Origin: a virus
Taxonomy: Duplodnaviria > Heunggongvirae > Uroviricota > Caudoviricetes
Virus record (IMG/VR): IMGVR_UViG_3300042887_002597
Coordinates: 1-46,233 of that record
Direction: 5' to 3' (one strand)
DNA: 46,233 bases
Shown: one piece after another, positions 3,223 to 29,213 of the stretch
How the letters are laid out: every line of letters starts with the position of its first letter
Position numbering within the stretch: the stretch's first letter is position 1
Program-made: the position numbers and the translations under genes
Notes under the pieces: generated by a model
Database searches by the model: none
Told to the model about the DNA's origin: nothing
Seen by the model: the letters and a program-made list of their open reading frames with translations, nothing else

Positions 3223-6015
3223 TTAGAAGAATATCATTTGTCTCCAGAATGGTGTGTCGTTATGACGCATAACATACAAGTAATCTAAACCATCCTCAGT
3301 TTTCTTAATCCACATTCTTCGACCTTGACGAGCTGTAGACATACCTGCTGGTATTAAACCTGCTACTTCTGAGCGATCGTTATCAGTATCGATGTATATT
3401 ATACGAGCAGTTGCATTGGGTTGTATGTATATTCTTCCTTTTCCATTGTATGCATACATTGTTCCTGTCGTTAAGTTTTCTCCAGTCATGTGATTAAACG
3501 GCATAACAAATGGAGTCTCATACTGCATTGTACCAATGTTATACTTTTGGAAACGCATTGTTGAACCTGCCTCAAAGCAATATATGTACTTTCCTAAAGT
3601 CTGTCTTGGTGTTAGTGTTTCGTTTGCTGTTCCATATACCCACTTTAAATCAGCACCACCAGCACCTGATGTGGTTGATGTTGTGTTTCTTGGTTGGATT
3701 GGTAATATGCTGTAAACAGTTGTTGTATCAGGTGCGGTTGTTACTGCTGTAAACGTTAGTGTAGTAGCGGTGTTGGCTGTGATAGGCGTTTCTTGTCCAG
3801 CTCCATTTCCTGCTACAAACTTTAAACGAGCACCTGCCCAGAAGTTGCTTGGCCAGCTCTTATTTATGTCTGTTAATGTGGTTGTGGTACCTGCAGTTGT
3901 TGGCACTCCATGTCCCCACGTCAAGCTCGTATCAAATGATGCTGTAAAGTTTGTTGTTGTTGCTGCAGCGTTTGCACTAAGTGACAGCGTTACAAAAGAT
4001 GGATTGGTAGTACTATCGTAAGAGCGATAGAATGTATTTGCTGGTATAGGTTGTGTGCCAGTACTAATTGTTCCACTAATAGGAGCTCCAATTGGAATTT
4101 GTGCAAGAATACTTCCTGTCCGGCTTGCTGATACAAATAGATATGGTTGTCCCGATATGGTACTTCCTGTGATGGCGTAGCTGCTAGTTCCTGTAGCGTA
4201 GCTGGTGTCTAATCCGTAGCTTGCTCCAAATGAAGCTGATTTGCATATGTTGTATCCCCAAATGTTTGAAGTTATGGCTGAGTATGCTAGTCCTACTGTG
4301 ATTGACTGTGATGTGTTCGCTGTAATCCTTCGAAGAGCTGTTGTTGGTGCAGTTGGTGATGATGATATTATTTGTAATACTTGACCTACAAACTCATTCT
4401 CCTTCCAGTTTTTAGAAGCATCATACATCGTTACGGTTGAATGTGCATTAAATGTTGCGTTTGCAGACGGTGTTCCAGACATCCAATAGGTAAATTGTGT
4501 TGGTTGTGTAGTACCAGTCAACGTAGCACTTAGTGGATATGAACTTGTCACGGTAAACATTCCATTATAGTATTGTGAATCTGATCCTAGTGCTCCTGAA
4601 ACATATATTCTATCTCCAGTTATAAAAGGATGTCCAGTGATAGTCGTTACCGTTGCAACTTGTCCAGTTCTTGTGATTGTTGATAGTGGATGCATAGCCT
4701 CATAGCTACTTGAAAACCTAGCGTATGCTACATTTACCACTCCATCATCATATCGTTGAGATGGTAGCCATGTGTTAGTTCTTGTAGAAAATTGCGTCAT
4801 TGTGGAGAAGTTTCCACCGTTCATATACATTTTATCGCTATCTGCTACAATCTCATAATCATTGCCTGCGGTTGGCACAAAGTCTAAATCCCCCTTGAAG
4901 TATAGTGTTGTTGTGTCATTAGATACAATATGTTTCTCATATCCGTTTGCTTTATTAACAAGTCTGTAGTTTGCCCACTGATTTGTGCTCCAAGTCTTTG
5001 TGTTATCGCTAAATGAGCGTGTAGTAGCTGCTGTAGCGGATCCTGTCTCCAAAGCTCCAATCAACGATCCATCAATACTTTCTACTTGCAACTCCGTGCT
5101 TGCTAAGTATTGTGGTAAGTGACCGGTAGCGACGTGTCCTGCTAACCAGCTTGCGTATAGTGGATCGTATATGTAGTGTGTGTATAATGCGTTTGAAGAT
5201 ATATTTGCGATATGATGCAGCATTCCAGTTTGTATCTCAAATCTTGACGAGTAGTCCATGTCTACAGGCCATGGTTGGTCCACCGTAATGGTGTCGGCTT
5301 GGATCACAGCTCTTGATGCATATGATGTACCTGGTGAGAGTATGTTGGCATCGAATACCTGATTGTATGCTAAGTTTGGGTCAATTGCATGCCATTCCGC
5401 ATTTGCAAAATACAAAGTATCGTTGTTGTTGTATAATATTCGTCTAACAAAGAATTGCTGGCTGGTTCCTAGGTATACTCTCAACTGATAACCTCTCCAT
5501 TGATTTGGAATCCACTTTTTAGATGAGTCTGTGATGTAGGTTGTTGTGGTAGCTGAGTTTGCGAAGCCAGTTACTGTTAGGTACTCAATATCTACGGGTC
5601 TTGATGACGATACTATTGTTCTTACAGCACCTCTTCCAGGTCCAGTTACTACTTTTATTTTTAATCCTACTACAGCACTTTCGTTAATAAACGATCCTGT
5701 TGCCACAAGACTACCGCCTGTAGCACTAATAAACCTTCCTGCGTGACCATCGTCTGTTTTCCAAGCTGCAGTTACTGTACTTGTTACTCCGACTGGGACT
5801 GTGGCTCCATAATATGACCATGCATCTGAGTACATGTCGTATCTCCAGAAGTCTTGGCCGTTTATTGCGTATGCGTATCTATGCTGCCAGCTACCAGTAT
5901 CTCCAGCTGGAGTTGTTATTACTACGTTTGTAGCTGCTGTTGTGAATGGCGAGTATCTCATCCACTCCCATACAGGTTGATCTACTATCTTTCTAAGTCT
6001 ATTTACTAATGCCAT
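3223..6015 (-). CDS. Large virion/receptor-binding protein with beta-propeller-like ends and internal repeats (930 aa)
   Basis: Kelch-like blades at both ends (FWRYDMYSDAW; FQKYNIGTMQY), four TxxxD.xKxWxxNxW repeats, and an FCCH-like segment (ITRTGQVATVTTITGHPFITGDRIYVSGA). Sits among fibre genes. Confidence 0.6.
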   Translation of the reverse strand: MALVNRLRKIVDQPVWEWMRYSPFTTAATNVVITTPAGDTGSWQHRYAYAINGQDFWRYDMYSDAWSYYGATVPVGVTSTVTAAWKTDDGHAGRFISATGGSLVATGSFINESAVVGLKIKVVTGPGRGAVRTIVSSSRPVDIEYLTVTGFANSATTTTYITDSSKKWIPNQWRGYQLRVYLGTSQQFFVRRILYNNNDTLYFANAEWHAIDPNLAYNQVFDANILSPGTSYASRAVIQADTITVDQPWPVDMDYSSRFEIQTGMLHHIANISSNALYTHYIYDPLYASWLAGHVATGHLPQYLASTELQVESIDGSLIGALETGSATAATTRSFSDNTKTWSTNQWANYRLVNKANGYEKHIVSNDTTTLYFKGDLDFVPTAGNDYEIVADSDKMYMNGGNFSTMTQFSTRTNTWLPSQRYDDGVVNVAYARFSSSYEAMHPLSTITRTGQVATVTTITGHPFITGDRIYVSGALGSDSQYYNGMFTVTSSYPLSATLTGTTQPTQFTYWMSGTPSANATFNAHSTVTMYDASKNWKENEFVGQVLQIISSSPTAPTTALRRITANTSQSITVGLAYSAITSNIWGYNICKSASFGASYGLDTSYATGTSSYAITGSTISGQPYLFVSASRTGSILAQIPIGAPISGTISTGTQPIPANTFYRSYDSTTNPSFVTLSLSANAAATTTNFTASFDTSLTWGHGVPTTAGTTTTLTDINKSWPSNFWAGARLKFVAGNGAGQETPITANTATTLTFTAVTTAPDTTTVYSILPIQPRNTTSTTSGAGGADLKWVYGTANETLTPRQTLGKYIYCFEAGSTMRFQKYNIGTMQYETPFVMPFNHMTGENLTTGTMYAYNGKGRIYIQPNATARIIYIDTDNDRSEVAGLIPAGMSTARQGRRMWIKKTEDGLDYLYVMRHNDTPFWRQMIFF

Positions 6016-6018
6016 ATA

Positions 6019-6537
6019 TTAACTAAATTCTAAGTTTCTTCTTATCATTGCGTATGATTGTCTTGATTGGGGAAAAAGAGTTGTTTCTGCTGCAGTTACA
6101 GTATTATTTTGTCCTCCCCCCATGTAAGTTTGATTGTGGTTACTAACTACAGCGGGAACCATAGAACTAATTTCTACTCTTTGTTGTCCTGTTGAGTTTG
6201 CGTTTGCAGATGGCTCCAATAATTTTATCATACGTCTTAATAGCTCTGTCTGCTCGTTAATTAGCTGTAGTGACTCGTCTGATGCCGGTGTTGCAATGTT
6301 ATCAAAGAAAATTTGCAGCTTGTCTGTGCTTGACATTGAGGTCGTGTCGTAATCTAATGTTAGCACATTGCTAGCAATATTTCCTCCTGCATTAGGATCT
6401 GCGAAGTTGTATACAATTTGGTTTGTTGTGACATTGGTGATTATCAACAACTGCTCCAATGTGATGGTATCTGTTGTGTTAAATGTAACTGTTTTAGCAG
6501 TTGCATCAAAACTGTAGTTCTCGAATAATACCTTCAT
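6019..6537 (-). CDS. Tail-fibre-associated adaptor-like protein (172 aa; start revised to MKVLFENY)
   Basis: The ATG at 6537 is 9 nt downstream of the conserved motif (6547..6554). The ORF track's 6567 start has no such support. Beta-rich N-domain followed by a short coiled coil. Confidence 0.6.
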   Translation of the reverse strand: MKVLFENYSFDATAKTVTFNTTDTITLEQLLIITNVTTNQIVYNFADPNAGGNIASNVLTLDYDTTSMSSTDKLQIFFDNIATPASDESLQLINEQTELLRRMIKLLEPSANANSTGQQRVEISSMVPAVVSNHNQTYMGGGQNNTVTAAETTLFPQSRQSYAMIRRNLEFS

Positions 6538-6567
6538 GATTTTTCTAATAAATATACAACAAAACAA

Positions 6568-9500
6568 TTAACCTAGCGCTATTGCATAAGCAATAGATAG
6601 TGCTTGTAGACTGACTCCGTTTTGCTTTACATCACCTTGTACGTCTAATGATCCGGTTACTTGTACACTATCTGTAAACCTTCCACTACCGCTTACGTCC
6701 AAAGTAAATTGCTGTTGCACTCCAGCTGAACTATCCACTCCTATAAAAGTAGGACGTTGAATGTAGTTAGCATCGTATCTAAAATTTACGAGGCTATTGC
6801 TTGAACCACTTACTAATCTTAAAAATGATGAGGATTCTGAAGACAATGTACTGAATATGCTAAATCCATCATTTCCTGAGTTTAGGTTGAGGCTTATAGT
6901 TTTACCGTCGTTATCTCTTTTTGTGAGATACAATGATCCTTCTTCAGTAGTTAGAACTTTACCAAGCCCAATAATATATTCATTTTTTCCATAGCTACCG
7001 CTAAATACACCATTTTGATTAGTCGCTAAAGATGGAGATCCCCCAATAGCAGCTGCGTTCGTATATTGAGTACCTATGGTTACAAAATCCGAACCTGTAG
7101 CTATAATTTGGGAGTTTCCTTTATATGGGAAACTCAATCCAAATGCTGGTATGTATAGGTTTCCTTCGTTAAGACCATTTATGTAAGTACCATCAGTGTC
7201 TGATCTAAATGCAGTTTGAGATCCTGAGAAGGCGATTGAGTTCCAACCAATCCCACTTGCATAAAATGATCCAACTGAGAAGCTTGATGATGTGTTAGAT
7301 TGTATTTTTACAGACGTGGAATCTAGTACATTAGTAAAACTTCCTGTAATCGTCAATCCATTAGTAAAGTTTCCACTACCACTTACATTTAACCTATATC
7401 CCGGATCTGTTGTTGTGCCTATAAGAACATTGCTAGTTGTGCTAATAGCTAAAGCAGGGGTAGTAAATGTCGTTCCGCCGTCTACTGTTGAAGGAGTTAT
7501 ACTAAAGTTTTGTCCACGTAATCCTACACTTAATTCCCAGTTTTTAAAAGAGCTATTATATCCAAGCATTTTAAATGTAGCTCCATAGTTACCCGACGGG
7601 GAAGGACCTAATTGTAAGTTTGAGACAGCTGTTGTGTTACCTACAATTAAATCACTTACAAATCTACCTGAGCCACTTACGTCTAATTTATATCCCGCAT
7701 CCGTTGTTGTGCCTATAGCTACATTACCATTAGCAAAGATTCTTGCGCGTTCAGTATTGTTTGTGCCCAAAATTAAATCACCTGCATTGAATGTTCCAAT
7801 GGCAAGTTTTTTAGTTGCGTCAGATGTTGCTTGCGCGAATAAAGCGTGTAAATTAGTTCTATTAACTCCAAACAAAGTACCACTGGCAGCAGAGCCATAA
7901 GAGTTAATAGCAAGATAATCATTTTGATCGTTACGCGCCATTAATCGAACTTGTCCTGCGTTGTTAAAATTCTTAAAATCTAACCCCGAAATCAAAGAAC
8001 TATTTGCGGCAATACCCACAGCCATATCAAAATTAATAGTATCAATTTGGCTGTAAACTTGATTACTTTGTTGTATTGTAAATTTTACAGCAGGTGTAGT
8101 TGTACCAATACCTACATTACCACTTCCACTCACGAATAAGGCAGGACCTGCAGAAGAGCTTACTACCAACAATGCTTGTGAGGTTGAGCCACTTATATGT
8201 AATCTTGCTGTAGGCACTCTAGTTCCAATACCTATACTTCCAGAAACTGATAAGCCATATGCCGGTGGTGATCCGGTTGTTCCTCCAATAGTAAATCCAC
8301 CGATAGACATACCATTGTTTGGGGAAAACACAAAGTTATCACTTAGAGAACTCGAAGGGCTAATTAAAATTTCCCCGTTTAGATAGTTATAACTTCCATA
8401 AATTCTGCCGCCTCCATAACCGTTAATGTCGTATAAAAACATTCCACCGCCTCGTTGAGTTATACTACCGGATATGAGTGTATTACCTACTACTTCTAAA
8501 GGTGCAGATGGTGCTATTGTTCCTATACCTACTCTCCCAGATCCATTTACAACAAATTTAGGAGTTGTGGAGTCAGCTACGTGTACTTGAAATTGTTTAA
8601 AAGAATCTGCGGTACCACCTTCAAATTTAAATCCAAATCTACCAAAGAAGTCGGCTGATGCTGCTGCGTTTGTGTAAAAATTCCATACACCTCTGTTTTG
8701 ATTAGCATTAGCTGAGCTTATATCGTATCGAGCTATTTCTCCTTGAGCTTGGTATTGATGATAGGTACCGTATAAATCTAAGGCGTAAGCAGGGGTATTG
8801 GTTCCAATACCGACATTACCACTAGCATCTTCAAATATACCAGAAGAGGTAATATGGTCTCCACCTTGCCCCTTCATTAAAGCATTTGTAGTAGTACCCT
8901 GCTCGTTGCCCATTGATCCTGTGTTTCTAGGACCGGATATTAGCATACCTCCTGAGTAGGTACTGCCACTAGCATTTTGGTATATCCACTTGTTGTTTAG
9001 CGAATCCCAAGATAGGCTTGCAGTTGCTAGATGCGATAAGGATCCAGAGTCGTAAACTTTTAATCCACCAAATCTCTCTCCTGGTTCTGCTACGTTCACT
9101 GAGATGTAGCTTGTTCCAACGTCTAGTTGAGATGCTGTTGTGTATGTGTAAGATGCTGTTCCAAACACATTAAGATTGCCAACTATGGTTACGTTTTGAT
9201 TGAGTTGGTTTACTGCATTAGCAGTTCCTGCTGTTGTTGCGTAGCTGGCTGTGTTTGCTTGTAAAGCGTAGGATGCTGTTGCTGCGTAGCTTGCTGTACT
9301 TGCACTCAACACCGTCATTGATCCGGTATTTGCGCTTATTATAATAGGCGATCCGGATACTTGGATGCTGCTTGTTGTGTTCCAAATACCATTTCCTAAA
9401 TCTACAAAAGGTGCTGATGATCCTGATAACCCTTGTATACCCTGAGGTCCAGTTGAACCTGATGGTCCTATAGAGCCAGAAGGACCTTGTGGACCTACTG

Positions 9501-12688: not shown

Positions 12689-13360
12689 TTAGTCGCGATA
12701 TTCGTTGTAAACGCTCAAGATAGGTTCTACAATTTCGTGTCTGTGGTTTGTCTTTAGAGTGATTACTCCAAATCCTGGAATTGTTGTCAGTCTCTTTACT
12801 ACAAAGTCAAATCCAGATTGCTTTTTATCTCTCAAGTCAATTTGAGCTACGTCACCACAAAGGATCATCTTAGCTCCATGGCATAAACGTCCTAAAAGCA
12901 ACTCCATTTGTCTATGAGTAATGTTTTGTGCCTCATCAACTACAACAAGGCAGTCTGATAAGTTACGACCTCTCATAAACGCTAAAGGAATTACCTCGAT
13001 GTTACCATCTGCAATGTGTTTGTCTATGATTTCCTTTTTGTACAGGCGATACATGTTGTCGTATATTGCAGCGGTGTATGGTGCTAGTTTTGCATCCTTA
13101 TCACCGGGCAAAAATCCAATATCTTCACCTGAGGTGACTGCTGGCCTAGTTAGTACGATCTTTTGAACATCACGGCGGAAAAGAAGGTCTAATGCCACTT
13201 GTGCGGCTACCATGGATTTTCCACTTCCTGCTGATCCTTTTAAGACTGAGATTGTGTTCTCAAGGATTTGTGATTTTGCTTGTTTCTGTTCCTCACTAAG
13301 AGTAATTTGAAACTTAATAGGGCCCTTTGGCTTTCTCTTCGCTGAAGTAACTTCTTCCAT
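12689..13360 (-). CDS. phoH: PhoH-family ATPase
   Basis: Walker A GSAGSGKS, LTRPAV, GFLPGD, PLAFMRGR, DEAQN and GDVAQID are all PhoH signatures. Confidence 0.95.
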   Translation of the reverse strand: MEEVTSAKRKPKGPIKFQITLSEEQKQAKSQILENTISVLKGSAGSGKSMVAAQVALDLLFRRDVQKIVLTRPAVTSGEDIGFLPGDKDAKLAPYTAAIYDNMYRLYKKEIIDKHIADGNIEVIPLAFMRGRNLSDCLVVVDEAQNITHRQMELLLGRLCHGAKMILCGDVAQIDLRDKKQSGFDFVVKRLTTIPGFGVITLKTNHRHEIVEPILSVYNEYRD

Positions 13361-13442: not shown

Positions 13443-15095
13443 TTAAAGCACGTTTAAGTCACCTACGTACACTTTACCGTAGAACTCAGGACGAGTTACA
13501 AGCTTAGCGTAGCGAGTCATCACACCACGACGTGGGATGAAGTTGTTCGGATCGTAAACAAGCGGAGTAAGCATCAACGGAATGTATGGTGCGTACACAG
13601 CTCCTGTCTCAAGGAATTGTGATCCACGGAATCCCATCAATACAGTGTTCTCTTGCATGTAAGGGTTCTTATACACAGTGTAGCGGCTAGTTAAAGCACC
13701 TACCTTTTGTACACCCATTGCATACTTCACTTTAGAACCATCACCATCTGCAGCATATCCTGGGATAGACTCAAGAATAGTTGATACGTCTGGAGAGCAT
13801 ACTAAGAAGTTAGCTCCACCACGTAAAGTCTTAGCGTGAATTTGGTTAGAAACTTTTTGAAGTTTTGTACCCAAAGTTGCATACCAAGTACCTTGGATGT
13901 AAGCTTGTCCAGAGAACTGGCTAGTTGTAAAGGTGTTAGTAGCGCTGTTCCACTCTTGACCTACTTTAGCTGACCAGTAATCGGTTGTTGCAGCAGCTGA
14001 AATCAACATGTCTAAGATTTCTAAGTCAATTTCCATAGAAACGTACTCAGACAACATAGCAGTCAATTCTGCTTCAGCATCGATTGAGTGGTAAGCGTTC
14101 AAGTCTTGAGCAAATTCTGGAGTCCAGCTTGCCTTTAACTTACGAGTCTTAGCAGTCACAGGAATAGAACGCATTTGCAATTCAATCTCTGGGATTCTCA
14201 AGTCGGTGTCAAGGTTGTTTGCAACGTCAGTTGTACGAGGAGTTACAACTTCAAAGTCACCACGAGTATCGTTAGTAGGTTGCAAGCTATAAGACATTGC
14301 AGTTGTAAACGATGCGTTAGTTACAGCTGAAGCTGCGATTACGAATTGGATAGATGATCCAGTCACTACAGTGAATGCTGGTAAGTACTGTCCAGTTGCT
14401 GCATTAAGAGTTGTAGAAGCTGACACAGGAATGAAAGAACGTACAGCTGTAAGGTCAGCGTTTGCTGGGATACCTACACGAAGGGTCTTCCAAGTAGTAC
14501 CAGCAGTTGCACCAGTAGCAGTTGTTCCTAAAGAAGCAGTGTAGTTTCCATCTTGGAATACGTCAATTGAAACTGCAGATGCAGTAGTGATTGAAGTTGT
14601 AGATGAGCTAACTAGGAAGTTAGTTGAATAACCAAAACGACCAGCTCCATAAAGACCGTCTGATGCAGCAGTGGATGCAGAAGTGATACCCATCAAAGTA
14701 CCAGTTTGGTTCTTACCTACTGGAGAGAATCCAAATGGGTTCTTTTGGTTACCATATTTGAAATCCAAATAGAACACAAGACCTGATGGTAAGTTCATTG
14801 GTTGAACGCTAACGAATTCTTTAGCTGAAATCTCAGCAAAGATACGACGGATCAACGGAAGAGCTACGCCAGTCCATTGTTCAAATCCAGTACCAGCAGA
14901 GGTACCAGAACCACCTGAGTTAGCTGATCCTTCTTTGATCAACTGCTTAGCTTGGTTTTCTAAAAGAACAGACACGGTTGCTTTCTCGTGCTCGCTCTTC
15001 AAGCCTTCCAAAAGACCTGATTTACCCCACTTGCTAACAAGTTGACGGTTTTCAGCTCCTCTATTTGGCTCTTGCATGTTTTCGAATAAATTCAT
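13443..15095 (-). CDS. gp23: Major capsid protein, T4 gp23-like (550 aa)
   Basis: VQPMNLPSGLVF, TAKTRKLKASWTPEFAQDLNAYH, YAPYIPL and RRGVMTRYAK motifs; candidate maturation site LIKE|G. Confidence 0.95.
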   Translation of the reverse strand: MNLFENMQEPNRGAENRQLVSKWGKSGLLEGLKSEHEKATVSVLLENQAKQLIKEGSANSGGSGTSAGTGFEQWTGVALPLIRRIFAEISAKEFVSVQPMNLPSGLVFYLDFKYGNQKNPFGFSPVGKNQTGTLMGITSASTAASDGLYGAGRFGYSTNFLVSSSTTSITTASAVSIDVFQDGNYTASLGTTATGATAGTTWKTLRVGIPANADLTAVRSFIPVSASTTLNAATGQYLPAFTVVTGSSIQFVIAASAVTNASFTTAMSYSLQPTNDTRGDFEVVTPRTTDVANNLDTDLRIPEIELQMRSIPVTAKTRKLKASWTPEFAQDLNAYHSIDAEAELTAMLSEYVSMEIDLEILDMLISAAATTDYWSAKVGQEWNSATNTFTTSQFSGQAYIQGTWYATLGTKLQKVSNQIHAKTLRGGANFLVCSPDVSTILESIPGYAADGDGSKVKYAMGVQKVGALTSRYTVYKNPYMQENTVLMGFRGSQFLETGAVYAPYIPLMLTPLVYDPNNFIPRRGVMTRYAKLVTRPEFYGKVYVGDLNVL

Positions 15096-16322: not shown

Positions 16323-16976
16323 TTATGCAGCTTTTAGGCCTAATTTTCCTGCAAATTCTGCTACTTCTGAGGATTTGATTGACGCCATTGCAGCTTCAAA
16401 GGCTGCTAATGAAAAGCTTCCACCGTTTGCTGCTCCGGCAGCTGCGCTTTTGAAGGCACTTACTGCTCCTACTCCGCTATACACTGCTAGTGATGCAATC
16501 AATACATAGTATATTGCTTCAGCTGCTTTTAGCTGCTGAGCTTCATCCTTAATACCTACTTTTTTAAACAGGCCTGATACCTTTAGTATCCATTTTAGAC
16601 CTTTAATGTAACTCTTATGCCACTTGTGGGTAAACTCAATTATCGTGTTTGCCATCTGCTCTTGGTCATCTGGCGACTTTGCTTGACCTGGTTTGAATAG
16701 TTTTTTAAAGAGATTAGTTACTCCTTGAAAAGACTTTACTATCAGTTCGACTACCTTTGGTGCTGCTAATAATGCTCCTACAATAGCTACTGCACCCAAA
16801 GCCTCATTAAGCTCTGGGCTTGATTGATCTACATCTTGTTGTAATTCCTCCTGACTTCTCTCAAGCTCAGCGCCCATTGTCTTGAATGATGCAGCCATTG
16901 CTTGATCTAAAGCGCTTATTGCTTTCTTATCTTCTTCTTCTCGAATTACACTTTCTAGTAGGACTTTCAGTTTCAT
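16323..16976 (-). CDS. Hypothetical protein with hydrophobic helices, candidate internal head/ejection protein (217 aa)
   Basis: MKLKVLLE leader, internal LNE site followed by a hydrophobic helix, and a second hydrophobic helix near the C-terminus. Confidence 0.6.
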   Translation of the reverse strand: MKLKVLLESVIREEEDKKAISALDQAMAASFKTMGAELERSQEELQQDVDQSSPELNEALGAVAIVGALLAAPKVVELIVKSFQGVTNLFKKLFKPGQAKSPDDQEQMANTIIEFTHKWHKSYIKGLKWILKVSGLFKKVGIKDEAQQLKAAEAIYYVLIASLAVYSGVGAVSAFKSAAAGAANGGSFSLAAFEAAMASIKSSEVAEFAGKLGLKAA

Positions 16977-16978
16977 AG

Positions 16979-17347
16979 TTAGTCTATTATATCGCTAAAG
17001 TTTACAAACACATCAACTTCATCTGGTTTAACGGTTACAACCATTCCCTTGCTGTTGATGCTCTTTAATTCTCCTTGGCTGCTAATGAAGTCTGCATTGT
17101 TGTATTTCTTCACTCTTCCAATGTTAAATTTGATAGGGTACTTGAGGTCTGCTTGTGGCTTTGCATCGCCTTTTTCTTCCTCACCACCCTCTTCACCAGC
17201 TGCAGGCTCCTCCGCTGCTGCGTCGTCTGCTCCCGCTTCTTCTCCACCAGCAGCTGCAAATGGATTCTCTCCACCTGCTTCTTCCTCATCTCCTTCTGCT
17301 TCACGCAAAGGCATAAGGTCTTTGAGTTTTATTGTCTTAAAGCTCAT
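16979..17347 (-). CDS. Hypothetical protein, candidate internal head protein (122 aa)
   Basis: IKLKDLMPLRE leader, acidic linker, small beta-rich C-domain. Confidence 0.6.
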   Translation of the reverse strand: MSFKTIKLKDLMPLREAEGDEEEAGGENPFAAAGGEEAGADDAAAEEPAAGEEGGEEEKGDAKPQADLKYPIKFNIGRVKKYNNADFISSQGELKSINSKGMVVTVKPDEVDVFVNFSDIID

Positions 17348-17702
17348 AATATCTTCCTAAGTTGTGACCCATTTCTTCATACAAAGACTCTAAGCGTTGT
17401 TGTAGTTTGGAAATCTCTTTCACAGTTTGTCCAAACTGCTTATTGCCTTCACGCAATGTTTTAAGGTTACGCTTTACTGTAATCTCATCAAACCAGTCTT
17501 GGGTCTCTTGTAGAGTAACTGCTTCTGCTTTAGTCACAAGCTCGTTAATTTCCTCAGCTACACGACGTAAGTCTTCAGTACGATAGATTACTGAACCGTA
17601 TTCGTTGAACTTCTTTACCTCTTCTAGGAAAGCAGCTTTTTCGTTTGTGGTCTTTTTTGGAGAATCTCCTTCAAATCCTTCTAATAATTTCTTTAGTTTC
17701 AT
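17337..17702 (-). CDS. Hypothetical helical protein, candidate prohead core protein (121 aa)
   Basis: MKLKKLLE leader; start overlaps the protease stop (TAATG). Confidence 0.65.
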   Translation of the reverse strand: MKLKKLLEGFEGDSPKKTTNEKAAFLEEVKKFNEYGSVIYRTEDLRRVAEEINELVTKAEAVTLQETQDWFDEITVKRNLKTLREGNKQFGQTVKEISKLQQRLESLYEEMGHNLGRYYEL

Positions 17703-18301
17703 TACATTACTGAGATTATGTCGTTTATCAATGAGTGTACTTTTGAGTACTTGTTTTGTTTATTGTCGTGTGTTACGGATTCGTTAAGTGGTGACATAAA
17801 CGCTCCTTGAGTTGATGGGTTGCTTACTAAGTCCCAGCAAACGATTTCAAAGTCATCTTGTACCTCTACTTTTCCTTCTCCAATGTTTTTAACACTACCC
17901 ATACCTCTTGAGCTGATCCCCAAACGTATGCCTGATCTCAAAAGTTCTTTTGCAATGTTTCCTGATGGAGTTCCTAAGATTTCAATCTTACCCATTAGGT
18001 CATTACCATCCCACCATAGATCAACTACGTTGTGAGATACGTTTTGCAAGTTCACTACTCCAGAATCTGGGTGATCTAGTTCTCCCAATGCTCTACGTTC
18101 TGCTACAAATACTTGCTTGTATTTATCAGCTTCACGACGTAGAATGTCATCTGGATATTGTCTACCGTTTTGGTTAGTAGCATTCGCTCTCTGCATTACT
18201 CCTGATAAGATTACCTTACCATTGTTTTGCTGCATAGACTCGTTGATCTGCTCTGGTGTTACAGAGAGACAACCGATTGAATCTATTAATAGTTTTTTCA
18301 T
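17702..18301 (-). CDS. gp21: Prohead protease, T4 gp21-like
   Basis: NQNGRQYP, ALGELDHP (catalytic His), GISSRGMGS (catalytic Ser) and DLVSNPS motifs. Confidence 0.95.
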   Translation of the reverse strand: MKKLLIDSIGCLSVTPEQINESMQQNNGKVILSGVMQRANATNQNGRQYPDDILRREADKYKQVFVAERRALGELDHPDSGVVNLQNVSHNVVDLWWDGNDLMGKIEILGTPSGNIAKELLRSGIRLGISSRGMGSVKNIGEGKVEVQDDFEIVCWDLVSNPSTQGAFMSPLNESVTHDNKQNKYSKVHSLINDIISVM

Positions 18302-24084: not shown

Positions 24085-24750
24085 TCAGTAAACTTTCTTA
24101 TACGATAACATTTTTGGCTCATGTAGGTAATCTAGCTTATCAAATCCAAAGTATTTTGCTTTAAATTGTGCTTGAGCGTACTCATCGTAGTCATATTCTC
24201 CGTCAAAAAACGGTTTTAAGTCTCTATAAGCTTTATTCCAGTTTGTTTCTGATATGAACACTTCGCAGAAAGCTATGTGGCTTTTGTATTGATTGAAGTC
24301 ATGAAAGTCGTGTTCGATGTGAATCAACTCGACTACTTTATCCTCAGTAATGTAATCCACACAAAAATCAACCATGTATTTTGGTTTTATGTTTAGTACT
24401 TTTACTAATCGTGGATATTTCTTACTTAAACGCTTAAGTTGCTCTAAGGCTTCTCCTTCGTAAGCATATCTCGTGTTGAGATGGCAGTGATCCAAAAAGA
24501 TATGTGGATGCTGTTCCTCTTGCACCATCCAATCTTGGATACATGCTGCTGCATCTGTTGGACTTCCTGGAACTAGAACGTGTCCTGCAACGTTGTTGTG
24601 TTGGTGATATAGACTCTCTATGTAAGTGAGCTCGTATCCAAATCTATCAAAAAACTCAGGAGCCACTAACCTTTCGAACACAGATTCGTCTGGTAGTGGC
24701 TCACTAATATACGGGTGCTGTACTAACTTATAATCTAGTACTCTAAACAT
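24085..24750 (-). CDS. Hypothetical protein (221 aa)
   Basis: Long aromatic-rich globular ORF; start overlaps the upstream stop. Confidence 0.7.
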   Translation of the reverse strand: MFRVLDYKLVQHPYISEPLPDESVFERLVAPEFFDRFGYELTYIESLYHQHNNVAGHVLVPGSPTDAAACIQDWMVQEEQHPHIFLDHCHLNTRYAYEGEALEQLKRLSKKYPRLVKVLNIKPKYMVDFCVDYITEDKVVELIHIEHDFHDFNQYKSHIAFCEVFISETNWNKAYRDLKPFFDGEYDYDEYAQAQFKAKYFGFDKLDYLHEPKMLSYKKVY

Positions 24751-25160
24751 TACTTCTGGTCTTCAATGACTTTTAAAAAGTTCGTTTGTGCTGCTCCAAA
24801 GTTTTTCTTGTCTTTGTTGTCAAATGTAATTTTTTCAATTACACCATCCTTCTGCTTCATTGCACAAACTGTTGCATCGAAACGCTCTAATCCAGTTAGA
24901 GTGTAGACGATGCCGAAGATAGCAGTCTTTTCTGTTACCTTAGCAATCAACTTAGCATCGCTGATAATTAAATCAAGCATACCAAAGTCTTCTACATCGG
25001 CTTCAAAAATCATTTCTTCTCCTTTCATGCCCAAGAACTTGAACATTGGTTTGTATCCGTGTGCTGTTTGAAATTCACGGAAATATGGAAGTCCTACCAG
25101 TTCTGGTGTTGACTTATCTTCTTCCACTTCTCGGAGTGGTATGAGGTTCATTAGTTTCAT
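24750..25160 (-). CDS. Hypothetical protein, candidate internal head protein (136 aa)
   Basis: MKLMNLIPLRE leader; TATTTATA 3 nt upstream. Confidence 0.65.
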   Translation of the reverse strand: MKLMNLIPLREVEEDKSTPELVGLPYFREFQTAHGYKPMFKFLGMKGEEMIFEADVEDFGMLDLIISDAKLIAKVTEKTAIFGIVYTLTGLERFDATVCAMKQKDGVIEKITFDNKDKKNFGAAQTNFLKVIEDQK

Positions 25161-26207: not shown

Positions 26208-26696
26208 TTAAATATCTTCTATTCTCTCTTTTAGAGCTTCTAATTCTCTCTTTCCTATCTCCTCAATCATTTTACCTGATGTGTCGTCCCAAGTTTCTTT
26301 TGTACCATCTCCTGTTACAATACTTGTTGTTTCTTTTGAGTAGTCTTTTATAAACTGCTCTAGATCATCGTAGAAGGATTCCATGTTTGCTTTGTACAAA
26401 GCTTTTATGTAATCCTCCATCTTTCCTGCTTTTTGTATCTCATGTTCCATATCCACAACGCAGTTAAAACACATTCTATATGTGTTCCATGCCCATTTAT
26501 GTACTGGGCTTTGTAGCTTCATACTGCACTTAGGACATGCTATTGGGGTAATAACCTGCTTTCGAAAAGCATCCATTTTTGTCACAGTCTTCTTAATGCC
26601 ATTTTTGAGAGTCCAAGTCTTTCCAGACTCCTCCCAAACGTCTCCTTCTTTGTGGTCAGTAAATGATTTCTTTTCTGTCGTAACGTAATAACTCAT
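26208..26696 (-). CDS. Zn-finger-containing hypothetical protein (162 aa)
   Basis: CPKC...CFNC Cys4 pattern. Confidence 0.65.
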   Translation of the reverse strand: MSYYVTTEKKSFTDHKEGDVWEESGKTWTLKNGIKKTVTKMDAFRKQVITPIACPKCSMKLQSPVHKWAWNTYRMCFNCVVDMEHEIQKAGKMEDYIKALYKANMESFYDDLEQFIKDYSKETTSIVTGDGTKETWDDTSGKMIEEIGKRELEALKERIEDI

Positions 26697-26998
26697 CGTG
26701 AGTGAAATTTGTATTTATCTAAAATATATTGTACATGCTTATCAAACTTACGCAAAGCTCTGCGTAATTCCAACTTTACACCTTCATTTATTTTATCCGC
26801 TTCTGCTTGGTCACCTACTCCTCTAAAGAAATCCTTTCCACCAGAACTGCTAATGCTGATAGAGAATGATGCTTCTGGGGTTCCTTCTTCACCTACAGCT
26901 TGGAAATCTTTTTCAAAGTGTAGTGTTAAGTTGGTTGTTGGTGATGAAGCAATTGCTTCTTTTTTTTCCGTTAAAGGAACTAGTGGTTTTAGTTTCAT
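26693..26998 (-). CDS. Hypothetical protein, candidate internal head protein (101 aa)
   Basis: MKLKPLVPLTE leader. Confidence 0.6.
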   Translation of the reverse strand: MKLKPLVPLTEKKEAIASSPTTNLTLHFEKDFQAVGEEGTPEASFSISISSSGGKDFFRGVGDQAEADKINEGVKLELRRALRKFDKHVQYILDKYKFHSR

Positions 26999-27002
26999 TA
27001 TA

Positions 27003-29213
27003 TTAAAATCTTAAATATCCTAGAATTTGATTTACTGGTGCGAAGGCTCCGGTTAGCTTGTATAGCTTACCTTTATATCTAAATACTACACCCTCTGTTG
27101 GAACAATAGCTTCAAAGCCTCCAATATCTTTCAATCTTAGCAATTGTCTTCTTAAAAACTTCATTGCAGCATCACTATCTGCGATAGATCCACTATCAAC
27201 AGCTGCTTGAATGTTCTTTATGGCTGCTGCTACGTCTTGTTTAATCTTTTTAGTAGCATCATTTGGGTTGACGGTTGTTAGGTTTTCTATATTCTTTAAT
27301 ATACGCACACCCAACTTCAAAAACAACCTTTCTACCGGTTCCAATACCTCTTTCTTTGTTGTCTCAACTTCTGATGACTTGTCAAATTGATCAAACCAGT
27401 TTTTAAACTCTTCGTTAGCAATCTTTCCTTTAATTGCTGGTGATGGTACAGATTTGTCTGTGAATGCCCAACGATTAACAATAAGCTCTCGTACTTCTTT
27501 AGGTATGTTGTACCCTAACTCCTTTGCCTTTTTCTTAACAAACACATTCCACCACTTACCAACATAATCCTTTACAGTATCACTTTCTTGCATCTTGTAT
27601 TTCTGTCTTACAGCATCTGCCATAGCTAAAAATTCCTTTTCTTGCGCTTCGTAATCTGCATCTTGCTTTATTGTTGCTGGGTTAGTTACTCCAACCTCAA
27701 AGGTCTTTTCATCATTTCCTCCTTGAACTGCATTAAAAGCAGATTGTAGCAGCTGTACACCTTCAACGTCGTCTCCAATAGGATTCCCAGCTTGGTCGTA
27801 TTCTTTAAAATGATGCATTCTTAAAAGCGATGCTCCATACGGAATTACGTTTTGAGTTTCTGGGAATAGGATTTCTAGGTTAATGAATCTTTTTCCATCT
27901 TGGAAAAACTCCTCCTTTTGCTTTGGAGTTAGTTTATTTATTGCGTTCTCTAAGTCACGCATAGTTTCAACAAAGGCTGTCTTGATTGGACCTCTATTTG
28001 CAAATTTCTCAGCTACTTGGTCTATTGTTTTACTCTCTTGGCCAAAATTCTTAAGCTCAGTTTTATTTCTAGCTGATCTTACTTTGCCGTCCTTGTAAGT
28101 TACCATTAGGTTCTGACCGTCTAACTTTTCTTGTGCATATTCTAACTTGCCCGAAAGAGCAGCCTTTATCATATCTTTAATATCTGTGAAGGATAAGTCT
28201 AAGTCTTCGTATGGGTGAGCTAAGTGTCCAGCTCCTCCTCCTTCGTTCAATTCTACTTTTTCTGCTATAAATGATGATGGCATTGTGTATTTTTCTAGTT
28301 TTAATAATTTTATTAGTGTAAAGTAAATCACTCCTCCTGGCAGGACTGATGCAGCTCCTAAGCCCATCGTCTTTATTACATCTCCTAATTGCTCTCCAAC
28401 TGCCTTCTTCTCTGCTGGTGTTAGTTTCTTTTTTCCTTGTGCTGCTTGCACAAGTATGGTGAACGCTTCTTTCGTTTCACCACCTTCCTGCTGCACTTTT
28501 TTTATAAAGTCTTTAAAGCGCATCTTTAACTTTGAAAAAAAATCACTTGGAAGTATTTCTTCTTGTAGATTCTTTTTTAAAATACCATATACCTTATCTA
28601 CTACAGCTTTATCAGCTATGTTTGGATAATTTGTTGCAAAAGCCTCCTCATCATTATTTTTTAAATCAGCTCTAAGCACACTAGCACTGACTCCTTTTCC
28701 ATTCTCACTCTTGCCTGGTACGTACTTTTGTGCTTTTGGTGTTCTGTTTTGATAAGGTAGTGGTTTTACATCTAATGGTAATTCTACTACATTTACACCT
28801 TCTCTGGCATATTTGCCTCCCGGTTGGTGTCCTGCTACAAATTGCTGTACTCGCTTGTAATCGTCTCCTTTTGAACTAGCAGCAAGTGCATAACTTCCTG
28901 GTTTAGCAGTTTCGATGTACTTGTATGCAGCTGCAAGTGGGCTTGTTACCTCTGTTTTTTGTATAAGAATTTTGTTGTTAGCTTTTGTTAGCTCCCTCCA
29001 AATTGCAATACTCTGCTCTCTGGTGACACCATCCCTTGGCTCAGGTCCTATCAATATGATAACCTGACTTACTCCTGGTTGCTCGGCATAGCGTGTTGCT
29101 AACTCAAGGTGCCCTCCATGTGGAGGTTTGAATCCACCAGGAAATAGAACAATTGTTTGTTCATCTAGTTCTCTTAATAGAGACTCTGCTAAATAGTTAC
29201 TTAATAAGCTCAT
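27003..29213 (-). CDS. Multidomain protein: HxGH-family nucleotidyltransferase + LETM1-like helical domain + ligase-like (KxDG) domain (736 aa)
   Basis: FPGGFKPPHGGH and VSASVLR (class I NTase); EKLDGQN, EGVVF and YKLTG (ligase motifs I, IV, V); central GEQLGDVIKTMGLGAASVLPGG segment. Confidence 0.7.
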   Translation of the reverse strand: MSLLSNYLAESLLRELDEQTIVLFPGGFKPPHGGHLELATRYAEQPGVSQVIILIGPEPRDGVTREQSIAIWRELTKANNKILIQKTEVTSPLAAAYKYIETAKPGSYALAASSKGDDYKRVQQFVAGHQPGGKYAREGVNVVELPLDVKPLPYQNRTPKAQKYVPGKSENGKGVSASVLRADLKNNDEEAFATNYPNIADKAVVDKVYGILKKNLQEEILPSDFFSKLKMRFKDFIKKVQQEGGETKEAFTILVQAAQGKKKLTPAEKKAVGEQLGDVIKTMGLGAASVLPGGVIYFTLIKLLKLEKYTMPSSFIAEKVELNEGGGAGHLAHPYEDLDLSFTDIKDMIKAALSGKLEYAQEKLDGQNLMVTYKDGKVRSARNKTELKNFGQESKTIDQVAEKFANRGPIKTAFVETMRDLENAINKLTPKQKEEFFQDGKRFINLEILFPETQNVIPYGASLLRMHHFKEYDQAGNPIGDDVEGVQLLQSAFNAVQGGNDEKTFEVGVTNPATIKQDADYEAQEKEFLAMADAVRQKYKMQESDTVKDYVGKWWNVFVKKKAKELGYNIPKEVRELIVNRWAFTDKSVPSPAIKGKIANEEFKNWFDQFDKSSEVETTKKEVLEPVERLFLKLGVRILKNIENLTTVNPNDATKKIKQDVAAAIKNIQAAVDSGSIADSDAAMKFLRRQLLRLKDIGGFEAIVPTEGVVFRYKGKLYKLTGAFAPVNQILGYLRF

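What the first reader, a model, noticed from the sequence alone, without database searches (positions are those of the whole stretch)
27003..29213. Putative virion-packaged enzymatic polyprotein: nucleotidyltransferase | LETM1-like | ligase-like, separated by prohead-protease-type sites
Seen: an N-terminal HxGH nucleotidyltransferase (GGFKPPHGGH, SASVLR), a central helical/hydrophobic segment (about 28251..28556), and a C-terminal domain with ATP-dependent ligase motifs (EKLDGQN, EGVVF, YKLTG). The junctions are exactly NLQE|E (28557..28568) and ELNE|G (28242..28250), and the N-terminus is MSLLSNYLAE..LLRE. Established: T4 gp21 cleaves head proteins after (L/I)xE; T4 uses Pnk/Rnl1 to repair PrrC-cleaved tRNA; phages encode NAD-reconstitution enzymes, including NMNAT, against NAD-depleting defences. 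Inference: the protein is packaged, cut into three proteins and injected as a pre-made counter-defence kit (nucleotide/NAD metabolism plus RNA or DNA joining), possibly ribosome-targeted through the LETM1-like part. The ligase-like part may relate to DUF6267; that and the LETM1 similarity are from memory and unverified.
Basis: partly seen in the sequence, partly recalled or inferred. Interest (0 to 1): 0.85.

Follow-up and report, generated by a model that had tools for sequence, protein, structure and literature searches.

The report
Protease-sited phage enzyme polyprotein, RNA-ligase-like
A distant T4-like phage encodes one 736-residue protein that strings together a targeting-type leader, an NMNAT-like nucleotidyltransferase, a small membrane-helix cassette and a previously unnamed RNA-ligase-like enzyme, with conserved head-protease-type cut sites at every joint, so it is probably loaded into the capsid, cut up and delivered with the DNA.

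Summary

All six [LI]xE triplets lie in the leader or at the two joints. None lies in the folded cores, where 6.0 are expected (P=0.0014). The sites are conserved: E324 in 118 of 120 homologues, and LxE before the ligase motif in 103 of 140 diverse representatives. They fall in segments modelled with pLDDT below 50.

The genome encodes a gp21-type S77 prohead protease and a gp23-type capsid protein. The middle is a cassette bay: absent, or holding HAD, kinase, CCA-adding enzyme or HNH modules, flanked by LxE in the close homologues inspected.

The 10-residue leader has the T4 capsid-targeting pattern. The same leader heads homologous cyanophage 'cytidylyltransferases' (S-CREM2, Syn9, P-SSM2). 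The S-CREM2 protein was found in virions by mass spectrometry, as were NMNAT-like proteins of other cyanophages that I did not compare.

Packaging, cleavage and the counter-defence role remain inferred. LETM1 likeness is sub-threshold, ribosome targeting is unsupported and DUF6267 was not found.

The parts
27003..29213 (-). Whole ORF, 736 aa (P0001), start ATG overlapping the end of the upstream 178-aa ORF
   Evidence: 615 homologues. The position upstream of p162, TerL, portal and the S77 protease is conserved across the 80 IMG/VR loci wherever the contig reaches those genes.
29160..29213 (-). N-terminal leader, residues 1-18, with LxE sites at E10, E15 and E18. The family consensus has L at position 4, Y/F at 7, L/I at 8 and E at 10.
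   Evidence: L4 in 117/120, Y/F7 in 113/120, L/I8 in 117/120, E10 in 110/120. It is modelled as a separate helix 3-17 ahead of strand 1. The same leader heads relatives whose first domain is a kinase, an NTase or the ligase alone, and cyanophage NTases.
28572..29159 (-). HxGH (HIGH) nucleotidyltransferase domain, residues 19-214. GGFKPPHGGH lies at 29109..29138 and SASVLR at residues 176-181.
   Evidence: Pfam CTP_transf_like E 0.011, below cut-off. AF2 gives a Rossmann fold. Foldseek top hits are NadM NMNAT 2qjo and PPAT 5ts2, probability 1.0, TM by target up to 0.68. 29 of 40 long relatives hit PF01467, best 5e-11.
28560..28571 (-). Junction 1, NLQE (residues 215-218), a candidate prohead-protease site
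   Evidence: An LxE at or just after this position occurs in about 93 of 120 homologues. pLDDT is below 50 at residues 217-221.
28269..28559 (-). Variable middle cassette, residues 219-315: helices plus a hydrophobic LPGG-containing helix at about 283-303
   Evidence: Hydropathy and modelled helices 222-306. It is absent in the 625-aa variants and replaced or joined by HAD-like, other helical or HNH modules elsewhere. LETM1_RBD matches are sub-threshold only.
28242..28268 (-). Junction 2, residues 316-324, a double site IAE / LNE immediately before the invariant GG(A/G)AGH motif
   Evidence: E318 in 107/120 and E324 in 118/120. LxE precedes the motif in 62 of 78 IMG/VR loci and 103 of 140 representatives. 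pLDDT is below 50 over 317-330, with no secondary structure in the first 16 residues of the C-domain model.
27006..28241 (-). RNA-ligase-like adenylyltransferase domain, residues 325-736. Its nucleotidyltransferase fold is interrupted by a helical insert of about 180 residues. Motif I EKLDGQN is at 28110..28130, and motifs IV-V EGVVF...YKLTG at 27048..27095.
17702..18301 (-). gp21-type prohead serine protease (Peptidase_S77), the presumed processing enzyme
   Evidence: PF03420 E 1.3e-29; phrog_207 E 5e-58. It is also present in related records, including Mel-JY01.
13443..15095 (-). gp23-type major capsid protein with LxE sites in its N-terminal propeptide (E30, E46, E55)
   Evidence: PF07068 E 5.6e-76, with the match starting at residue 72. 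The site QLIKE|G aligns with QLISE|A in Mel-JY01 and QIVSE|A in immuto.

Best explanation
The gene encodes a modular multi-enzyme precursor of a distant T4-like ('far-T4', probably Bacteroidota-infecting) myovirus.

Shown:
- It consists of an 18-residue leader, a HIGH-motif nucleotidyltransferase nearest to NMN/NaMN adenylyltransferases and PPAT, an optional helical/hydrophobic cassette, and a new, unannotated family of RNA-ligase-like covalent nucleotidyltransferases.
- In relatives the NTase-ligase pair is the constant core. Extra modules (P-loop kinase, CCA-adding enzyme) are fused before or between them, a HAD-type module sits at the joint in closer homologues, and a 2H phosphoesterase was scored in one member.
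- Conserved L/I-x-E triplets sit in disordered linkers at every joint and in the leader, and are depleted inside the domains.
- The genome has a gp21-family protease.

Inferred:
- The leader acts like the T4 capsid-targeting sequence and takes the precursor into the prohead core.
- The S77 protease cuts after the Glu of each LxE. This removes the leader and frees the NTase, the cassette and the ligase, whose new N-terminus would be the invariant GGxAGH motif.
- The pieces are ejected with the DNA.
- There they most likely seal and help to heal broken RNA (tRNA) and supply an adenylylated cofactor at the very start of infection, before phage genes are expressed.
For: Domain identity:
- Structure models and fold matches identify both enzymes.
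- Catalytic motifs are invariant in 66 diverse sequences.
- There is a weak PF09414 hit exactly over motif I.

Cut sites:
- P0001 has 0 LxE in the domain cores against 6.0 expected (P=0.0014).
- Family observed/expected ratios are 0.17 (NTase) and 0.33 (ligase). The controls [LI]xxE, [LI]xQ and [LI]xK run 0.83-1.10, but others range from 0.26 ([LI]xD in the NTase) to 2.33.
- The sites are conserved and fall in segments with pLDDT below 50.
- Among the close homologues, variants with more cassettes carry more junction sites.

Protease and context:
- S77 protease and gp23 capsid protein are in the window. The capsid propeptide carries aligned LxE sites.
- Neighbouring small ORFs carry MKLK...LxE leaders.
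- S77 is present in every related record or locus that reaches far enough.

Leader:
- Positions 4, 7, 8 and 10 match the published T4 rule: targeting by residues 4 and 7, processing by 8 and 10, cleavage after L/I-X-E (PMC9026906).
- The leader is portable across different first domains.

Virion evidence in homologues:
- Cyanophage cytidylyltransferases are homologous to the NTase (hhalign probability 95%, E 3e-8) and start with MKxFSxFLxE.
- 'NMNAT-like' proteins of S-SCSM1, S-CBWM1 and another estuarine phage were also reported in virion proteomes (PMC9602691). I did not compare those sequences.

RNA-repair theme:
- Partner domains are Zeta/AAA_33 kinases, PolyA_pol CCA-adding enzyme, 2H and HAD-like modules, and HNH. 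These match known phage RNA-repair sets (PMC7824862).
Against: - No direct evidence exists that this protein is in virions or is cut.
- A large subgroup of relatives starts directly with the NTase strand (MNKITVLFPGG...) and has no leader.
- 37 of 140 representatives lack LxE before the ligase motif. The commonest replacements are Cys (19) and Met (11), which a Glu-specific protease should not cut.
- Depletion statistics use related sequences, and control motifs range from 0.26 to 2.3.
- The gene lies at the border of the replication module (primase, SbcCD), so its position does not prove late or structural expression.
- In cyanophages the homologues sit among replication genes, and the S-CREM2 detection rests on 3 peptides. 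Its authors allow for carry-over contamination.
- The substrates of both enzymes are unknown.
- The own record has no kinase, phosphatase or Nampt partner.
Confidence: 0.5

Rival explanations
1. An uncleaved, cytoplasmic bifunctional (NTase + RNA ligase) repair enzyme made during infection. The LxE triplets and the amphipathic leader are conserved for folding, oligomerisation or linker reasons, not as protease sites.
For: The fusion recurs in both orders, which suits enzymes that work together. Leaderless relatives exist. Met or Cys replaces Glu before the ligase motif in about a fifth of relatives. Known phage RNA-repair enzymes such as T4 Rnl1 and Pnkp are cytoplasmic (established knowledge; PMC7824862).
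Against: The conserved L and E sit in segments modelled as disordered, with variable residues between them. LxE is depleted inside the domains. The leader is portable and follows the T4 targeting rule. A homologous NTase with the same leader was detected in virions.
Confidence: 0.25
2. The protein is packaged but only trimmed. The leader, and perhaps a tail, is removed as in T4 Alt, while the enzyme domains stay joined and act as one injected protein.
For: In T4 Alt only terminal propeptides are removed (PMC9026906). Variants with Met or Cys at junction 2 would stay joined. The recurrent fusion argues for joint action.
Against: Junction sites are as conserved as leader sites, and are often doubled, as in redundant propeptide sites. 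Stand-alone cyanophage ligase-like proteins begin about five residues before the HLxHP motif, which is where cleavage would put the N-terminus.
Confidence: 0.15
3. The ligase-like domain is the phage's DNA (nick-sealing) ligase for replication or packaging. The NMNAT-like domain would supply or recycle its nucleotide cofactor.
Against: The best fold matches are RNA ligases. The only Pfam signal is RNA_ligase. No OB or DNA-binding domain is present. The fused partners are RNA-end enzymes such as the CCA-adding enzyme. From my recollection, unchecked here, T4-like cyanophages generally lack a DNA ligase. The own record is only 75% complete.
Confidence: 0.1

Closest known systems
T4 internal proteins IPI-III and Alt (capsid-targeting sequence, gp21 processing, ejection)
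   Same: Both have a gp21-family protease in the genome and a 10-residue leader with hydrophobic residues at 4 and 7, L/I at 8 and Glu at 10. Both have L/I-x-E sites. Alt is also an enzyme cargo.
   Different: Here the cargo is a chain of several enzymes with internal, conserved sites at every domain joint and a swappable cassette position. The cargo enzymes are a HIGH NTase and an RNA-ligase-like protein. Packaging and cleavage are not shown.
Polyvalent proteins of phages and conjugative elements (Iyer et al. 2017, PMC5512222)
   Same: Both are large proteins that combine unrelated enzymatic domains, are predicted to enter the host with the DNA, and are predicted to be processed proteolytically.
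   Different: Processing there is ascribed to zincin-like peptidase domains within the protein. Here it would be done by the prohead protease at LxE. That survey did not find RNA ligases associated with the 2H domains of polyvalent proteins.
ATP-dependent RNA ligases Rnl1, Rnl2 and Rnl5 (T4 Rnl1, T4 Rnl2, Naegleria NgrRnl, TbREL1)
   Different: Sequence similarity is below every family threshold. A helical insert of about 180 residues separates motif III from motifs IV and V. An invariant N-terminal GGxAGH(L/M)xHP(F/Y)(D/E)D motif has no described counterpart. None of the usual appended domains is present.
Virion-associated 'NMNAT-like / cytidylyltransferase' proteins of T4-like cyanophages (S-CREM2 ORF154; S-SCSM1 ORF91; Syn9 gp184; P-SSM2_194)
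   Same: The HIGH NTase domain is homologous (hhalign 95%, E 3e-8) and carries the same kind of leader (MKxFSxFLxE) in S-CREM2 ORF154, Syn9 gp184 and P-SSM2_194. In Syn9 and S-PM2 it is adjacent to, or fused with, a ligase-like protein carrying HLEHPED, KYDG and EGFV motifs.
   Different: In cyanophages the parts are mostly separate genes in the replication region, and the ligase-like partner is short (about 320 aa). No one has linked their virion presence to a leader or to protease sites. S-SCSM1 ORF91 is known to me from the literature only and was not compared.
LETM1 ribosome-binding domain (PF07766)
   Same: There is a weak resemblance around the hydrophobic helix and the ...P(S)SF motif, about 55 residues (profile positions 1-53 of 229) in the one member whose match was printed.
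   Different: The best score is 17 bits against a cut-off of 25.3. Nothing suggests ribosome binding. The cassette is dispensable in the family.

Membership tests
Covalent nucleotidyltransferases / ATP-dependent RNA ligases | Motif I KxDG with the adenylylated lysine | tested here: met
   EKLDGQN at residues 362-368. D365 and G366 are invariant and K363 is conserved in at least 90% of 66 diverse sequences.
Covalent nucleotidyltransferases / ATP-dependent RNA ligases | Motifs III, IV and V in order (Glu; EGxxx; K-x-K type) | tested here: met
   E447 is invariant. E707 is near-invariant and G708 invariant in EGVVF. K719 is invariant in YKLTG. The assignment rests on pattern and order, not on a residue-level superposition.
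Covalent nucleotidyltransferases / ATP-dependent RNA ligases | Adenylyltransferase fold | tested here: met
Covalent nucleotidyltransferases / ATP-dependent RNA ligases | Reaches a curated family threshold (Pfam RNA_ligase, RNA_lig_T4_1, DNA_ligase_A_M) | tested here: not met
   PF09414 scores 12.8 bits against a cut-off of 27. PF09511 and PF01068 give no hit. There are no Pfam or NCBIfam hits for the domain.
Covalent nucleotidyltransferases / ATP-dependent RNA ligases | Self-adenylylation and RNA end joining | not testable with these tools
   Needs a biochemical assay.
HIGH (HxGH) nucleotidyltransferases, CTP_transf_like | HxGH motif after strand 1, and the ISxTxxR-type second motif | tested here: met
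   PHGGH at residues 31-35 (H35 in 119/120). SASVLR at 176-181, with S176, A177 and R181 invariant.
HIGH (HxGH) nucleotidyltransferases, CTP_transf_like | Rossmann-type fold of NMNAT/PPAT | tested here: met
   Foldseek probability 1.0 to NadM 2qjo and PPAT 5ts2, TM by target 0.64-0.68.
HIGH (HxGH) nucleotidyltransferases, CTP_transf_like | Pfam gathering score | tested here: inconclusive
   P0001 scores 16.3 bits against 21, but 29 of 40 long relatives match, with best E 5e-11.
NMN/NaMN adenylyltransferase (NCBIfam equivalogs) | Score above the curated equivalog cut-off | tested here: not met
   The best score is 22-36 bits against cut-offs of 127-449. Only the first 60 or so residues align.
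LETM1_RBD (PF07766) | Pfam gathering score over most of the 229-position profile | tested here: not met
   The best score is 17 bits against 25.3, over profile positions 1-53 in the one member printed. 7 of 38 members matched at E up to 1, and P0001 itself gave no hit.
T4-type capsid-targeted, gp21-processed internal proteins | A gp21-family protease in the same genome | tested here: met
   PF03420 E 1.3e-29 at 17702..18301.
T4-type capsid-targeted, gp21-processed internal proteins | An N-terminal leader of about 10 residues, with targeting residues at 4 and 7 and L/I-x-E at 8-10 | tested here: met
   L4, Y7, L8 and E10, conserved in 110-117 of 120 homologues. The rule is taken from PMC9026906.
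T4-type capsid-targeted, gp21-processed internal proteins | Presence in virions and cleavage after the Glu | not testable with these tools
   There is only indirect support: a homologous cyanophage NTase with the same leader was detected in virions.
Polyvalent proteins (Iyer et al. 2017) | Several unrelated enzymatic domains in one phage polypeptide, in a context suggesting delivery with the DNA | tested here: met
   NTase plus ligase here, with added kinase, CCA-adding enzyme, HAD and ART domains in relatives, next to the packaging genes.
Polyvalent proteins (Iyer et al. 2017) | A processing peptidase domain within the protein (zincin-like) | tested here: not met
   None in P0001. One relative has a weak DUF6782 metallopeptidase hit.

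The most novel reading that the evidence does not exclude
A widespread lineage of aquatic T4-like phages uses its prohead protease as a polyprotein processor. A portable 10-residue leader and L-x-E 'cut here' joints would form a plug-in rack on which enzymes can be swapped: a new RNA-ligase family, an NMNAT-like NTase, kinases, CCA-adding enzyme, phosphatases and an ADP-ribosyltransferase. The enzymes would be released inside the head and injected, so a ready-made tRNA/RNA repair and cofactor kit reaches the cell before any phage gene is expressed. As far as I know, this would be the first virion-delivered RNA-repair system.
Probability: 0.4. Interest if true: 0.85.

Novelty: new variant of a known kind. 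Interest (0 to 1): 0.7.

Why it matters
If true, the T4 capsid-targeting and processing system becomes a general, evolvable delivery platform for multi-enzyme cargo in very abundant uncultured aquatic phages. The ligase domain alone defines 1846 clusters at 50% identity.

It would explain why NMNAT-like proteins keep appearing in cyanophage virion proteomes. It would name a large unannotated RNA-ligase-like family that has a distinctive N-terminal motif and a helical insert. It would also suggest that RNA repair can be delivered pre-made, as a counter to tRNA-cutting defences.

In addition, it gives a sequence rule (leader plus LxE joints plus LxE depletion) for predicting packaged cargo from genomes alone.

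Tried and rejected
- Sequence searches of P0001 and of the C-domain profile against PDB chains gave nothing meaningful.
- PHROGs gave only weak hits: 'cytidyltransferase' and an unknown family.
- DUF6267 was not among the Pfam hits at E up to 1, and no paper mentions it.
- No paper on Mel-JY01 was found.
- Nampt (PF04095) and AAA_33 kinase are absent from the own 131-kb record, so a NARP2-type NAD pathway or a Pnk partner could not be shown.
- The A1 profile finds nothing in S-PM2 by sequence. Profile-to-sequence comparisons of the ligase domain with S-PM2 p141/p142 and Syn9 gp183 are not significant (E 0.05-0.2). Only the motif pattern and a BFVD structural hit (E 7.5e-4) link them.
- I considered that the 915-aa relatives were fusions with the upstream 178-aa gene and rejected it. 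The extra 180 residues are a HAD-like module inserted at junction 1.
- I considered that Met at junction 2 marks an internal start. No stand-alone protein beginning MGG... was seen among those inspected, so this is left open.
- No complex prediction was run.
Full report
**The object.** Window 27003..29213 (minus strand) is a single 736-codon ORF, P0001. The window is a phage. It encodes a gp23-type major capsid protein (PF07068, E 5.6e-76), a gp21-type prohead serine protease (Peptidase_S77, E 1.3e-29), portal, large terminase, primase and a fused SbcCD-like nuclease, all on the minus strand. By capsid protein, the nearest cultured relatives are Flavobacterium phage immuto, Microcystis phage Mel-JY01 and, further off, Rhodothermus phage RM378. 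The window is therefore a distant T4-like myovirus. The whole record is 131 kb and is estimated 75% complete.

**N-terminal domain.** Sequence evidence for P0001 alone is weak: CTP_transf_like E 0.011, and PPAT in PDB at E 0.07. A model built on 43 homologues (pLDDT 83.7) gives a Rossmann fold for residues 20-216. Foldseek places NadM-type NMNAT, PPAT, NadD and ATP sulfurylase at the top, with probability 1.0 and TM by target up to 0.68. The HxGH and SASxLR motifs are invariant or nearly so. NCBIfam finds only NMN/NaMN adenylyltransferase and PPAT models, all far below their cut-offs and covering only the first 60 or so residues. It is a HIGH-motif nucleotidyltransferase. 'NMNAT' is a lead, not a finding.

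**C-terminal domain.** A search of 1.84 billion cluster representatives with residues 316-736 found 1846 clusters (E up to 0.001), none with a name. The domain occurs alone (about 415 aa) or at the C-terminus, N-terminus or middle of proteins up to 1985 aa.
- A model on 66 diverse sequences has pLDDT 94.9.
- The first 35 Foldseek PDB matches are all RNA or DNA ligases, though with weak E-values of about 3e-3.
- The aligned residues span model positions 12-417, so the adenylyltransferase fold is interrupted by a helical insert of roughly 180 residues.
- Invariant or near-invariant residues fit ligase motifs I (K363, D365, G366), III (E447), IV (E707, G708) and V (K719). There is also an invariant N-terminal GGxAGH(L/M)xHP motif with no described counterpart.
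- Pfam RNA_ligase gives the only hit in the whole genome exactly over motif I, below threshold (E 0.008, 12.8 bits).

I file it as a new, divergent family of the ligase superfamily, most like RNA ligases.

**The middle.** Residues 219-315 form helices with one hydrophobic LPGG-containing helix. Across homologues this is a variable slot.
- It is absent in 625-aa variants.
- It is joined or replaced by a HAD-type module (FDFDDT motif; DUF2608 E 3e-4), other helical modules, or a module containing a MucR-type zinc finger and, by motif inspection, an HNH nuclease signature.
- LETM1_RBD is the most frequent Pfam match of this cassette, but always below threshold: 7 of 38 members, best E 0.004, over profile positions 1-53 in the one member printed. 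A language-model search lists a 'Letm1 RBD' cluster at 0.81.

This is a faint resemblance. Nothing supports ribosome targeting.

**The cut-site pattern.** This is the striking part.
- P0001 has six [LI]xE triplets, all in the leader (E10, E15, E18), at junction 1 (E218) or at junction 2 (E318, E324). The two folded cores have none, against 6.0 expected (P=0.0014).
- In 120 homologues the same positions are kept: E10 in 110, E15 in 117, junction 1 in about 93, E318 in 107 and E324 in 118. The residue between L and E varies freely.
- Among these close homologues, variants with more cassettes carry more junction sites, generally one or two at each module boundary.
- In wider samples LxE precedes the ligase motif in 62 of 78 IMG/VR loci and 103 of 140 representatives.
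- Within domains the triplet is depleted: observed/expected 0.17 for the NTase, 0.33 for the ligase, and 0.49 in the most diverse set. [LI]xxE, [LI]xQ and [LI]xK stay near 1, but [LI]xD in the NTase is 0.26 and other controls reach 2.3. The sequences are also related, so this is supportive rather than decisive.
- The only segments of the N-terminal model with pLDDT below 50 are 217-221 and 317-330, which are the two junctions.
- T4 gp21 cleaves after L/I-X-E (PMC9026906).
- This phage's capsid protein has aligned LxE sites in its propeptide, and several small neighbouring ORFs start with MKLK...LxE.

**The leader.** The family consensus has L at position 4, Y/F at 7, L/I at 8 and E at 10. In T4 IPIII, targeting depends on residues 4 and 7 and processing on residues 8 and 10 (PMC9026906). 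The leader is portable. It heads relatives whose first domain is a kinase, an NTase or the ligase alone, for example the 427-aa proteins in L054 and L078. Against this, one large subgroup starts directly with the NTase strand and has no leader.

**Partners and function.**
- Of 40 long relatives, 29 carry CTP_transf_like, 5 Zeta_toxin and 4 AAA_33 kinases.
- Single members carry a CCA-adding enzyme, a 2H phosphoesterase, an intein or an ADP-ribosyltransferase.
- Explicit architectures are kinase-NTase-ligase, CCA-NTase-ligase, NTase-CCA-ligase and ligase-NTase.
- These partners are the known phage RNA-repair set. Published examples also include HNH-ligase fusions (PMC7824862).
- The NTase-ligase pair is the constant core, so the two probably work together. 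How they do so is unknown.

**Synteny.** In 80 IMG/VR loci (ligase identity 37-62%) the gene keeps its place after primase, SbcCD, p1235 and p178, and before p162, TerL, portal and the S77 protease, wherever the contig reaches. S77 is also present in Mel-JY01 and in a distinct lineage.

**Link to experiment.**
- BFVD returned a 591-aa S-PM2 'cytidyltransferase-like' protein as a structural match.
- In cyanophages a ligase-like protein sits next to, or fused with, a HIGH NTase. Syn9 gp183 has HLEHPED, KYDG and EGFV motifs.
- The cyanophage NTases are homologous to this one (hhalign 95%, E 3e-8). Those I translated, from S-CREM2, Syn9 and P-SSM2, begin MKxFSxFLxE, the same leader pattern.
- S-CREM2 ORF154 was found in CsCl-purified virions by mass spectrometry, with 3 peptides (PMC10665884).
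- 'NMNAT-like' proteins were reported in virion proteomes of S-SCSM1, S-CBWM1 and another estuarine phage. The authors noted the frequency of these detections but also possible carry-over (PMC9602691). I did not compare those three sequences with this family.
- The papers I read do not connect this to a leader, to protease sites or to the ligase-like neighbour.

**Verdict.** The anatomy is shown. Packaging, cleavage into three proteins, ejection and the counter-defence role are inferred. I put them at about 0.5 together. The rivals are an uncleaved cytoplasmic enzyme (0.25), a packaged but only end-trimmed protein (0.15), and a DNA ligase with cofactor supply (0.1). The last is kept alive by the lack of any other ligase in the record.

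The concept is closest to T4 internal proteins and Alt, and to polyvalent proteins (PMC5512222). It differs in using the prohead protease at inter-domain joints and in its cargo.

That is a repeat of the idea, not independent evidence.

Noticed in passing
P0101, P0122, P0128, P0134, P0138, P0146 (relatives); Relatives with an HNH-type nuclease signature (read by eye) just upstream of the ligase mostly have LL(L/Q/T)C, not LxE, immediately before the GGxAGH motif. In all, 19 of 140 representatives have Cys there. What replaces the Glu site in these is unexplained.
   Followed up: partly
L026, L027, L030-L032, L040, L041 and others; 14 of 78 IMG/VR relatives have the conserved peptide (K/R)ELLLM before GG, so Met replaces Glu at junction 2. 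This could be an uncut joint or an internal start. No stand-alone MGG... protein was seen.
   Followed up: partly
window 24750-25160 and 26693-26998 (-), also 16323-17702: Small ORFs flanking the target and in the head operon start with MKLMNLIPLRE, MKLKPLVPLTE, MKLKVLLE or MKLKKLLE. These are leader-like peptides ending in LxE. In the whole record, 14 of the 28 ORFs with an LxE in the first 20 residues lie between 6 and 29 kb.
   Followed up: partly
G000:C1:60329-65209 (beyond the window): Three tandem paralogues start MGSTFSGLSE, MGSTFTGLSE and MSSVFKGLTE, so they too have a conserved LxE at residue 10.
   Followed up: no
L085 (S-PM2 NC_006820) 5026-6805: S-PM2p141 and p142 lie in different frames, yet together they look like one ligase-like + NTase protein. 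BFVD holds a 591-aa version. A frameshift or sequencing error in the old record is likely.
   Followed up: partly
L087 (Syn9) 432-1394, gp183: This unannotated 320-aa protein has HLEHPED, KYDG and EGFVIV...KIVNR motifs. It is probably a short ligase-like relative next to the cytidyltransferase gp184.
   Followed up: partly
L089 (Pelagibacter phage HTVC008M) 836-1498 and 1495-3285: A P-loop kinase-like protein starting MIPFILKE lies directly upstream of a 596-aa protein with an N-terminal HIGH NTase that starts MKTLKE. Both have an early LxE.
   Followed up: no
whole record G000 (131 kb, 75% complete): No ATP- or NAD-dependent DNA ligase, Nampt or AAA_33 kinase was detected. There are four tRNA genes (2 Met, Glu, Thr) at about 98.6-99.4 kb.
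   Followed up: partly
window 12689-13360 (-): A PhoH-like gene (phrog_170, E 4e-61) sits between the capsid protein gene and the neck/adaptor genes.
   Followed up: no
A3 members: Single long relatives of the family carry an intein (Intein_splicing/Hint), a Tox-ART-HYD1 ADP-ribosyltransferase or a DUF6782 metallopeptidase. Three carry DUF5661 and three a ROS/MucR zinc finger.
   Followed up: no
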